Positions 1 through 490 of a DNA stretch of 490 nt are shown here, piece after piece. This stretch comes from Escherichia coli (GTDB lineage Bacteria > Pseudomonadota > Gammaproteobacteria > Enterobacterales > Enterobacteriaceae). Numbering within the stretch: the stretch's first letter is position 1; each line of letters opens with the position of its first letter. The notes under the pieces were generated by a model. The model searched no databases. It had not been told where the DNA came from and saw only the letters and a program-made list of their open reading frames with translations. The translations under genes were made by a program, and so were the position numbers. The stretch lies in the NCBI RefSeq assembly GCF_003334765.1, contig NZ_QOWT01000119.1; one strand, given 5' to 3'.

Positions 1-210
1 TGTCCTGAATGCTTTAAGCGTAGCGACTCTGTTCATAGTTGTCGTCGGCGCCGGATACAGCATCTACCCTGCTCAGGGCAGACGCTATGGCTTGTATTTT
101 CCGTCCGCCACTGGTACTGCCGTAACCCGGCTTGTTCACGTAAAATTTTTGCCGAGTCGCTTGCTCCCTTCGCCAGTTCACACCAGCAGTCTTCACAGGC
201 GTTACAAAAT

Positions 211-213
211 TAA
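211..213 (+). other. In-frame ochre stop (TAA) between the zinc-finger-coding and HTH/DDE-coding parts of the transposase frame
   Basis: Read directly from the sequence: codons ...caa aat TAA caa cgt caa..., all in frame 1, with conserved transposase motifs on both sides. Confidence 0.9.
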
Positions 214-259
214 CAACGTCAACTGGGATTAATAGCTGGAGGTGAGGCTGGAAAACGGG

Positions 260-287
260 CTGCAACGGCAGTGGGTCTCCGTTGCAG
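260..287. repeat. Perfect 9-bp inverted repeat ctgcaacgg (260-268) / ccgttgcag (279-287) with a 10-nt spacer; potential hairpin
   Basis: Read directly from the sequence. It lies inside the coding region for the HTH-like segment (AATAVGLRC). No T-tract follows, so it is not an intrinsic terminator. Confidence 0.55.
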
Positions 288-490
288 TGCTGATACTCTT
301 CTTCGCAGGCTTATCAATACCCCGGAGACGAAACAGTCAGGCGCGCCTCATGTCGGTATTGATGAGTGGGCGTGGCATCGGGGCCACTGCTGCGGTATGT
401 TAATAGTCAATCCTGATACTCACCGTCCCCTCGTCCTGCTTCCCGGCCGTGATCAGCGTACGCTGGCGACCTGGTTCAGAAAATATCCGG

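What the first reader, a model, noticed from the sequence alone, without database searches (positions are those of the whole stretch)
260..287. Perfect 9-bp inverted repeat with 10-nt loop inside the transposase coding sequence
A perfect 9/9 stem with a 10-nt spacer has a chance expectation well below one in a window this size. It overlaps the HTH-coding segment. It could form an mRNA hairpin affecting translation, or be a coincidence of codon choice. It is not a terminator.
Basis: seen in the sequence. Interest (0 to 1): 0.25.

Follow-up and report, generated by a model that had tools for sequence, protein, structure and literature searches.

The report
Chance hairpin in dead transposase gene
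The perfect 9-bp inverted repeat is really there, but it sits in a dead copy of an E. coli insertion-sequence gene, is weaker in working copies and absent from relatives, so it is most likely a by-product of codon choice and not a working signal.

Summary
The repeat is confirmed: CTGCAACGG (260-268) and CCGTTGCAG (279-287), 9/9 complementary, 10-nt loop. It is the dominant local fold (-28.1 kcal/mol).

The window lies inside an ISEc38-like ISL3-family transposase gene on the E. coli chromosome. This copy is a pseudogene, with an in-frame TAA at 211-213, 47 nt upstream of the stem.

The repeat is only mildly unusual. I expect 0.03 per 490 nt in dinucleotide shuffles and 0.07 per gene in synonymous-codon shuffles. 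I found 8 comparable repeats in 20 kb of real flanking DNA. The local fold energy is matched by 11.6% of codon shuffles.

The perfect stem occurs only in the chromosomal pseudogene lineage and one plasmid copy. Both intact ISEc38 genes I examined carry a synonymous A at 261, leaving 7 bp plus a mismatch. An intact Salmonella relative (89% identical) has TG->AA in the 3' arm with no compensation. Five more distant relatives have no stem. No informative compensatory change exists, and RNAalifold does not recover the hairpin.

The hairpin is most likely a codon-choice quasipalindrome. A single A->T change made it perfect, possibly by template switching. It is not a terminator, frameshift signal or Rfam family. 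Interest is low.

The parts
260..268 (+). 5' arm of the inverted repeat, CTGCAACGG. It spans codons Ala129-Ala130-Thr131 and the first base of Ala132 of the transposase frame.
   Evidence: Position 261 is a fourfold-degenerate third position: T here, A in intact ISEc38, G in Salmonella p14-120, and T or C in the Klebsiella copies.
269..278 (+). 10-nt loop, CAGTGGGTCT. Two extra pairs (AG/CT) can form inside it, leaving a 5-nt loop.
   Evidence: The loop substitution T272C (Val->Ala) is common among sampled chromosomal copies.
279..287 (+). 3' arm of the inverted repeat, CCGTTGCAG. It spans the last base of Leu136, then Arg137, Cys138 and the first two bases of Ser139.
   Evidence: In Salmonella p14-120, positions 283-284 are AA instead of TG (Cys->Asn), uncompensated.
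211..213 (+). In-frame TAA stop that inactivates this copy. The intact ISEc38 gene has TTA (Leu113) here.
   Evidence: RefSeq annotates the copy as 'ISL3 family transposase, internal stop'.
1..490 (+). Internal fragment (codons 43-205) of an ISEc38-like ISL3-family transposase pseudogene. Zn-ribbon coding runs to about 126 and DDE-domain coding starts at about 352.
   Evidence: The window is 100% identical to E. coli chromosomal copies and 96% identical to intact ISEc38.

Best explanation
The 9-bp inverted repeat has no function of its own. It is a quasipalindrome that arose from codon choice in the ISEc38 lineage of ISL3-family insertion sequences.

The peptide Ala-Ala-Thr ... Arg-Cys-Ser happens to be encoded by mutually reverse-complementary codons (GCA ACG / CGT TGC). 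This gives a 7-bp core in all close copies I sampled except EC93.

In the ancestor of the defective chromosomal copy, one synonymous A->T change at position 261 (GCA->GCT) removed an A-A mismatch and extended the stem to 9/9. This could be an ordinary point mutation. It could also be a replication template switch of the kind known to perfect quasipalindromes in E. coli; that is an inference only.

The repeat looks conserved across thousands of E. coli genomes only because the dead IS copy is inherited vertically at one locus and is 97-100% identical among them.
For: Context:
- The window is 100% identical to a chromosomal 'ISL3 family transposase, internal stop' pseudogene.
- It matches in 3221 of 5426 complete E. 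coli genomes, with a median of one place per genome.
- In L73, TB06053 and FDN-9 the same gamma-glutamyltransferase fragment lies downstream.
- It is 96% identical to intact ISEc38. Window TAA 211-213 corresponds to TTA there.

Statistics:
- Perfect stems of this kind occur 0.033 times per window in dinucleotide shuffles.
- In synonymous-codon shuffles of the 1620-nt gene the mean is 0.07, and 5.9% of shuffles have at least one.
- 11.6% of codon shuffles fold the 71-nt region at least as stably.
- The whole-window fold has z = -0.39.
- 8 distinct comparable repeats occur in 20.2 kb of unrelated flanks.

Comparative evidence:
- The stem is 9/9 only in chromosomal copies (window, TB06053, UTI89, O111, ST131) and one O169 plasmid copy.
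- Both intact ISEc38 genes examined (pNORD58 and the CUVET16-465 chromosome) have A261, giving 7 bp plus a mismatch and -12.4 against -15.1 kcal/mol.
- EC93 has G268A.
- The intact Salmonella p14-120 gene has TG->AA, leaving a 4-bp run.
- pLG24p2, two Klebsiella elements, Methylobacterium, Agrobacterium and Streptomyces have no stem.
- The pair count shows 7 of 9 pairs departing only by unpaired cells. The single double change occurs only in the two Klebsiella copies, whose stem is otherwise destroyed. The covariation score equals the shuffled mean: 0.073 against 0.069.
- RNAalifold does not predict this hairpin, and its covariation term is -0.66.

Polarity: A261 is found in the deeper E. coli-clade branches (pRHB21, EC93) and T261 is derived.

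Literature: imperfect inverted repeats in E. coli are perfected by template switching (PMC7202029). In non-coding regions of E. coli K-12, perfect 9-bp arms are 3.4-3.9-fold over-represented, which the authors attribute to that process (PMC5941160).
Against: - The hairpin is locally stable (z about -2 at 71 nt; z = -3.8 for the 38-nt DNA fold). That region was chosen because it holds the repeat, so these scores are biased upward.
- The 7-bp core is kept in all sampled copies of 91% identity or more except EC93.
- A young, lineage-specific function cannot be excluded by covariation analysis, because there is too little divergence within that clade.
- No expression or structure-probing data were available.
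Confidence: 0.87

Rival explanations
1. The hairpin is a cis-acting mRNA structure of ISEc38-clade elements. It would slow or attenuate translation of the transposase, or stabilise the mRNA.
For: It is the dominant local structure in both 71-nt and 490-nt folds. A 7-bp core of -12.4 to -13.1 kcal/mol is present in all close copies, including the intact ones.
Against: - Intact copies have the weaker version, and the perfect version is in dead copies.
- The nearest intact relative outside the clade breaks the stem by an amino-acid-changing double substitution without compensation, and more distant relatives lack it.
- In this copy a stop codon lies 47 nt upstream.
- The stability is within the range of synonymous-codon shuffles, 11.6% of which fold as well.
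- A hairpin of about -12 to -15 kcal/mol inside an ORF is normally unwound by translating ribosomes (general knowledge).
Confidence: 0.05
2. The hairpin is the stimulatory structure of a -1 ribosomal frameshift site. The upstream run GGA AAA C (250-256) would act as the slippery site. The product would be a truncated Zn-ribbon protein ending at TGA 291-293, which might act as a regulator.
For: An A_AAA_C run lies 4 nt upstream of the stem. The -1 frame runs for 12 codons to TGA at 291-293. Frameshifting controls transposase expression in IS1 and IS3-family elements (general knowledge).
Against: - There is no canonical X_XXY_YYZ heptamer.
- Intact ISEc38 has G at 252 (GGG AAA C), which removes the A-run, and it also has the mismatched stem.
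- The 4-nt spacer is shorter than the usual 5-9 nt.
- There is no Rfam frameshift-element hit at this place. The only frameshift-family hit is elsewhere, on the other strand, at E = 4.4.
- The stem is not conserved.
Confidence: 0.01
3. The repeat acts at the DNA level, as a cruciform or hairpin used as a protein-binding site, a recombination or insertion target, or a breakpoint hotspot.
For: As single-stranded DNA the 38-nt region folds at -11.5 kcal/mol, z = -3.8. In one genome (FDN-9) the pseudogene is truncated 7 nt upstream of the stem and fused to another gene fragment.
Against: - Only one rearrangement was seen near the stem, and other truncated copies end elsewhere, at window 51 and 182.
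- The arms have no similarity to the IS terminal inverted repeats.
- The repeat is not conserved among related elements.
- A 9-bp arm with a 10-nt spacer is a poor candidate for cruciform extrusion (general knowledge).
Confidence: 0.03
4. On the minus strand the hairpin, followed by CCCGUUUUCC, terminates an antisense transcript.
For: The minus-strand RNA forms the same stem, with MFE -16.3 kcal/mol and z = -1.9. Four U residues follow after a 4-nt spacer.
Against: - The terminator scan found nothing on either strand, and no promoter-like site in the window.
- The U-run is short and separated from the stem.
- In intact ISEc38 it shrinks to three T residues, because position 252 is G on the plus strand.
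Confidence: 0.02

Closest known systems
Quasipalindromes perfected by replication template switching in E. coli (thyA hotspot, lacZ QP reporters; PMC7202029; genome-wide survey PMC5941160)
   Same: An imperfect inverted repeat (7 bp, an A-A mismatch, then a C-G pair) in the ancestral ISEc38 sequence became a perfect 9-bp repeat. The change was a single substitution on one arm, at exactly the mismatched position. The same change appears in two backgrounds.
   Different: A single base substitution cannot be told apart from an ordinary point mutation. Other sites in this alignment are also homoplastic, so recombination between IS copies could explain the recurrence. No mutation-rate data exist for this site.
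ISEc38 / ISL3-family insertion sequences (the element that contains the repeat)
   Same: The window is 96% identical in nucleotides to intact ISEc38. The intact protein scores 374 bits on NCBIfam NF033550, against a cutoff of 180. It has the Zn_ribbon_ISL3 and DDE_Tnp_ISL3 domains, and imperfect terminal inverted repeats of about 45 nt flank the gene.
   Different: This copy carries two internal stops and is annotated as a pseudogene. No 8-bp target duplication was found at the two copies examined. I found no internal hairpin described for the family: 28 papers mention ISEc38, and the 10 listed are genome or resistance surveys by title and abstract.
Programmed -1 frameshift signals of IS1 and IS3-family transposase genes
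   Same: An A-rich run lies upstream of a stem-loop inside a transposase reading frame.
   Different: There is no heptameric slippery site. The run is absent from intact ISEc38. The spacer is short, the stem is not conserved, and the frameshift product would be truncated instead of a fusion transposase.
Rho-independent terminators
   Same: A G+C-containing stem-loop.
   Different: No U-tract follows on the plus strand and only a weak, displaced one on the minus strand. The scan found none.

Membership tests
Conserved cis-regulatory RNA structure | Base pairs maintained across homologues, with compensatory (both-sides) changes | tested here: not met
   In one search, 7 of 9 pairs depart only by unpaired cells, and the covariation score is 0.073 against a shuffled mean of 0.069. 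In one search the stem is absent in 7 of 7 lineages outside the ISEc38-like clade. In one search RNAalifold does not recover the hairpin.
Conserved cis-regulatory RNA structure | Local stability beyond what the encoded protein and codon usage give | tested here: not met
   In one search, 11.6% of synonymous-codon shuffles fold the 71-nt region at least as stably, and 5.9% of shuffled genes contain a perfect stem of 9 bp or more.
Conserved cis-regulatory RNA structure | Match to a curated RNA family | tested here: not met
   In one search the Rfam E-value scan gives only two sub-threshold hits (E = 1 and 4.4, bit scores far below gathering). Neither is biologically plausible.
Rho-independent terminator | G+C-rich stem followed directly by a U-tract | tested here: not met
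   One search found 0 sites on either strand. The plus-strand tail is TGCTGATAC and the minus-strand tail is CCCGTTTTCC.
Programmed -1 ribosomal frameshift site | Slippery heptamer X_XXY_YYZ in the zero frame, 5-9 nt upstream of a stable structure, conserved in functional copies | tested here: not met
   Only A_AAA_C is present, with a 4-nt spacer. Intact ISEc38 has G252, which removes the run. The -1 frame stops after 12 codons.
ISL3-family insertion sequence (context of the window) | DDE transposase matching the ISL3 family models | tested here: met
   In one search the 96%-identical intact ISEc38 protein scores 374 bits on NF033550, against a cutoff of 180. One search finds DDE_Tnp_ISL3 and Zn_ribbon_ISL3. 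One search shows the window translation 94% identical over 79 residues.
ISL3-family insertion sequence (context of the window) | Terminal inverted repeats flanking the transposase gene | tested here: met
   One search finds 43-45-nt arms, 77-80% complementary, 1676-1680 nt apart, in both L001 and L002. The ends shared between the two copies are shown.
ISL3-family insertion sequence (context of the window) | 8-bp direct target duplication | tested here: not met
   Searches show no matching 8-mers next to the ends in L001 or L002. These may be old or rearranged insertions, so this does not count against family membership of the transposase.
ISL3-family insertion sequence (context of the window) | Intact, potentially active transposase gene | tested here: not met
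   Searches show internal stops at codons 113 and 460. This copy is a pseudogene.
Quasipalindrome template-switch mutation | The mutation increases the complementarity of a pre-existing imperfect inverted repeat and matches the sequence templated by the other arm | tested here: met
   Searches show ancestral A261 opposite A286. The derived T261 is the complement of A286.
Quasipalindrome template-switch mutation | Elevated, mechanism-specific mutation rate at the site (dependence on replication and exonuclease background) | not testable with these tools
   This needs a genetic reporter assay. The apparent recurrence (chromosomal clade and O169 plasmid) is only suggestive.

The most novel reading that the evidence does not exclude
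The A->T change at 261 that perfects the repeat arose independently at least twice: once in the chromosomal pseudogene lineage and once in an otherwise ISEc38-type O169 plasmid copy. If so, this site would be a natural quasipalindrome template-switch hotspot inside an IS. A further possibility, still not excluded, is that the 7-9-bp hairpin is a young, clade-specific regulator of ISEc38 transposase synthesis.
Probability: 0.12. Interest if true: 0.2.

Novelty: not a real feature. Interest (0 to 1): 0.04.

Why it matters
It matters little. The result removes a candidate regulatory hairpin from further consideration.

It also illustrates a general trap. A perfect short inverted repeat that looks conserved across thousands of genomes can simply be a vertically inherited fossil of an insertion sequence.

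At most, this is one more natural example consistent with the known tendency of imperfect inverted repeats in E. coli to be perfected.

Tried and rejected
- **Terminator.** I scanned both strands and found none. The minus-strand fold has only a short, displaced U-run.
- **Known RNA family.** The Rfam E-value scan gave only noise hits.
- **-1 frameshift signal.** The A_AAA_C run plus stem was rejected. Intact ISEc38 lacks the run (G252), there is no heptamer, and the -1 frame ends after 12 codons.
- **HTH-coding claim.** Pfam on the intact protein and on five aligned family members gave no HTH hit at residues 100-150; the hits fall at 293-338. AlphaFold on a 5-sequence alignment gave pLDDT below 50 for residues 101-153, so the helices it shows there are not reliable. 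The claim stays inconclusive.
- **Full-length tree.** An alignment of 11 copies was spoiled by truncated and interrupted copies. I replaced it with a tree on the 490-nt window region.
- **Target-site duplications.** I looked for 8-bp duplications at the IS ends in two copies and found none.
- **Templated origin of the 388-398 cluster.** I checked whether this substitution cluster was templated by the stem arms. The gain in complementarity is 8/11 to 9/11 by my count (arms, alleles), which is not convincing.
- **Literature on ISEc38.** 28 papers mention it; the 10 listed are genome and resistance surveys by title and abstract, and none is about its regulation.
- **Large scans not run.** I did not run the metagenome or genome-collection scans or the deep protein searches. 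The plasmid and E. coli collections already gave homologues from 100% nucleotide identity down to about 29% amino-acid identity over the aligned segment, which settles the question.

Full report
**Observation**

The window contains a perfect inverted repeat: CTGCAACGG at 260-268 and CCGTTGCAG at 279-287, separated by 10 nt. Folded as RNA, region 240-310 adopts this hairpin as both minimum-energy and centroid structure. It is extended by two pairs inside the loop, at -28.1 kcal/mol and z = -2.04 against dinucleotide shuffles. The hairpin also survives in the fold of all 490 nt, although the window as a whole is not unusually structured (z = -0.39).

**How unusual it is**

- In 5000 dinucleotide-preserving shuffles of the window, a perfect stem of 9 bp or more occurs 0.033 times per window with a 3-20-nt loop. 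With 0-50-nt loops it occurs 0.09 times.
By my arithmetic the same rate predicts several hundred such repeats in a 5-Mb genome, so finding one in a genome scan carries little weight.
- In 20.2 kb of unrelated real DNA flanking the loci fetched here I counted 8 distinct repeats of the same kind.
- I then held the protein fixed and shuffled synonymous codons within the 1620-nt gene. 5.9% of shuffled genes contain at least one such stem, and 11.6% fold the 71-nt region at least as stably as the real sequence.
- A published survey reports 233,730 short inverted repeats in coding regions of E. coli K-12. It also finds that perfect 9-bp arms are 3.4-3.9-fold over-represented in non-coding regions (PMC5941160).

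**What the window is**

- Frame 1 translates as an ISL3-type transposase fragment, interrupted by a TAA at 211-213.
- The window is 100% identical to a chromosomal locus that RefSeq annotates as 'ISL3 family transposase, internal stop'.
- It matches in 3221 of 5426 complete E. coli genomes, with a median of one place per genome, mostly on chromosomes.
- The same truncated gamma-glutamyltransferase fragment lies downstream in strains L73, TB06053 and FDN-9. This indicates one inherited locus.
- The closest intact element is ISEc38, at 96% nucleotide identity. There, window TAA 211-213 reads TTA (Leu113). The L73 copy also has a second internal stop at codon 460.
- The intact ISEc38 protein scores 374 bits on the NCBIfam ISL3 model, against a cutoff of 180. 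Pfam finds Zn_ribbon_ISL3 at residues 40-84 and DDE_Tnp_ISL3 at 160-295 and 413-534.
- Imperfect terminal inverted repeats of about 45 nt bracket the gene, so the window lies wholly inside the IS.

**Position in the protein**

The stem covers codons 129-138 (AATAVGLRCS), between the Zn ribbon and the DDE domain. Canonical ISL3 transposases carry their HTH in this position (general knowledge). Pfam nonetheless reports no HTH hit there in ISEc38 or in four aligned relatives. Its HTH hits fall at residues 293-338, inside an insert in the DDE domain. An AlphaFold model built on a 5-sequence alignment draws helices at 123-132 and 141-147, but pLDDT is below 50 across 101-153.

**Comparative test**

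I collected 19 copies spanning 100% nucleotide identity down to about 29% amino-acid identity and placed them in codon register.

| Copy or group | State of the stem |
|---|---|
| Chromosomal pseudogene lineage (window, TB06053, UTI89, O111, ST131) and one O169 plasmid copy | Perfect 9/9 |
| Both intact ISEc38 genes (plasmid pNORD58, chromosome CUVET16-465) and most other plasmid copies | A at 261 (GCA for GCT, synonymous): A-A mismatch, 7-bp core, -12.4 against -15.1 kcal/mol |
| EC93 | G268A, which breaks the innermost pair |
| Intact Salmonella p14-120 gene (89% identical) | TG->AA at 283-284 (Cys->Asn), other arm unchanged, 4-bp run left |
| Salmonella pLG24p2, two Klebsiella elements (72%), Methylobacterium, Agrobacterium, Streptomyces | No stem at the homologous codons |

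- On the 13-sequence alignment, 7 of the 9 pairs depart only by unpaired cells.
- The covariation score equals the shuffled mean, 0.073 against 0.069.
- The single double-sided change occurs only in the two Klebsiella copies, whose stem is otherwise destroyed.
- RNAalifold does not recover the hairpin, and its covariation term is -0.66 kcal/mol.
- The amino acids encoded by the arms vary: Thr or Val, and Cys, Asn, Thr or Ile.

**Other readings**

- No terminator-like or promoter-like site is found on either strand.
- The minus-strand hairpin is followed only by CCCGUUUUCC.
- Rfam gives only noise.
- The run GGA AAA C, 4 nt upstream of the stem, could suggest a -1 frameshift site. It is not a canonical heptamer. 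Intact ISEc38 has G at 252, which removes it. The -1 frame ends after 12 codons at TGA 291-293.
- One genome (FDN-9) has the pseudogene truncated 7 nt upstream of the stem. Other truncated copies end elsewhere.
- In this copy, the stop codon 47 nt upstream means ribosomes in the transposase frame would not reach the hairpin. An effect on translation is therefore moot here.

**How it most likely came about**

- The 7-bp core follows from reverse-complementary codons (GCA ACG / CGT TGC). It is shared by all copies of 91% identity or more except EC93, which fits recent common ancestry.
- On a neighbour-joining tree of the window region built without column 261, A261 occupies the deeper E. coli-clade branches (pRHB21, EC93). 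T261 is derived in the chromosomal clade.
- T261 also appears in the O169 plasmid copy, flanked by ISEc38-type alleles at 252 and 300.
- The change replaces the base opposite A286 with its complement. That is the signature of quasipalindrome template-switch mutation, which is documented in E. coli (PMC7202029) and has been proposed to explain the excess of perfect inverted repeats (PMC5941160).
- This step is inference only. A single substitution cannot be distinguished from an ordinary mutation. Other sites in the alignment are also homoplastic, which suggests recombination among IS copies.

**Verdict**

The repeat is real, but it is not a functional feature. It is a codon-choice quasipalindrome inside a vertically inherited, inactivated ISEc38-like element. 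It is perfect only in the dead lineage and one plasmid copy, weaker in both intact copies examined, and absent in relatives. My confidence in this reading is about 0.87. The element itself, ISEc38 of the ISL3 family, is already known. Interest is low.

Noticed in passing
window 211-213: In-frame TAA nonsense codon (TTA, Leu113, in intact ISEc38). Among the sampled chromosomal copies only the window and TB06053 have it. UTI89, O111 and ST131 keep TTA there, yet are also annotated as having an internal stop, so they must be inactivated elsewhere.
   Followed up: partly
window 388-398: Four linked substitutions within 11 nt relative to ISEc38 (CACCGTTACGGTAC -> CACTGCTGCGGTAT, changing RYGT to CCGM). 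They are shared by the window, UTI89, O111, ST131 and plasmid EC93, but not by TB06053. This looks like a multi-nucleotide event or a mosaic tract. A templated origin from the stem arms was not convincing.
   Followed up: partly
window 261; L008 (O169 plasmid) homologous position: The stem-perfecting T261 occurs in the chromosomal clade and again in an otherwise ISEc38-type plasmid copy, flanked by ISEc38 alleles at 252 and 300. This is either a recurrent mutation or a very short conversion tract.
   Followed up: partly
L002 2260-2610 (ISEc38 residues about 296-412; outside the window): ISEc38-type transposases carry an insert of about 120 residues that splits the DDE_Tnp_ISL3 domain. The insert has helix-turn-helix hits and a match to the N-terminus of IS21-family transposases (E = 1.6e-16). 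It is present also in alpha-proteobacterial and Streptomyces relatives.
   Followed up: no
L001 3780-5543; L002 1280-3043: The IS ends are defined by the sequence shared between a chromosomal and a plasmid copy (about 1764 bp), with imperfect terminal inverted repeats of 43-45 nt. No 8-bp direct repeats flank either copy.
   Followed up: partly
L024 1490-1510 (E. coli FDN-9 chromosome), equivalent to window about 253: The pseudogene is truncated 7 nt upstream of the stem and fused to a phosphotriesterase-related gene fragment. This is a single rearrangement, and its cause was not examined.
   Followed up: partly
window 310-321 / 355-366 and 285-298 / 408-421: A second, imperfect inverted repeat (12 nt, 92% complementary, 33-nt spacer) and a 14-nt direct repeat sharing CTGATACTC. 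Both are probably chance.
   Followed up: no
L004-L013 (plasmid and chromosomal ISEc38-like copies): Most sampled ISEc38-like copies are decayed, with internal stops, frameshifts or truncations. Only pNORD58, CUVET16-465 and Salmonella p14-120 were intact among those examined.
   Followed up: partly
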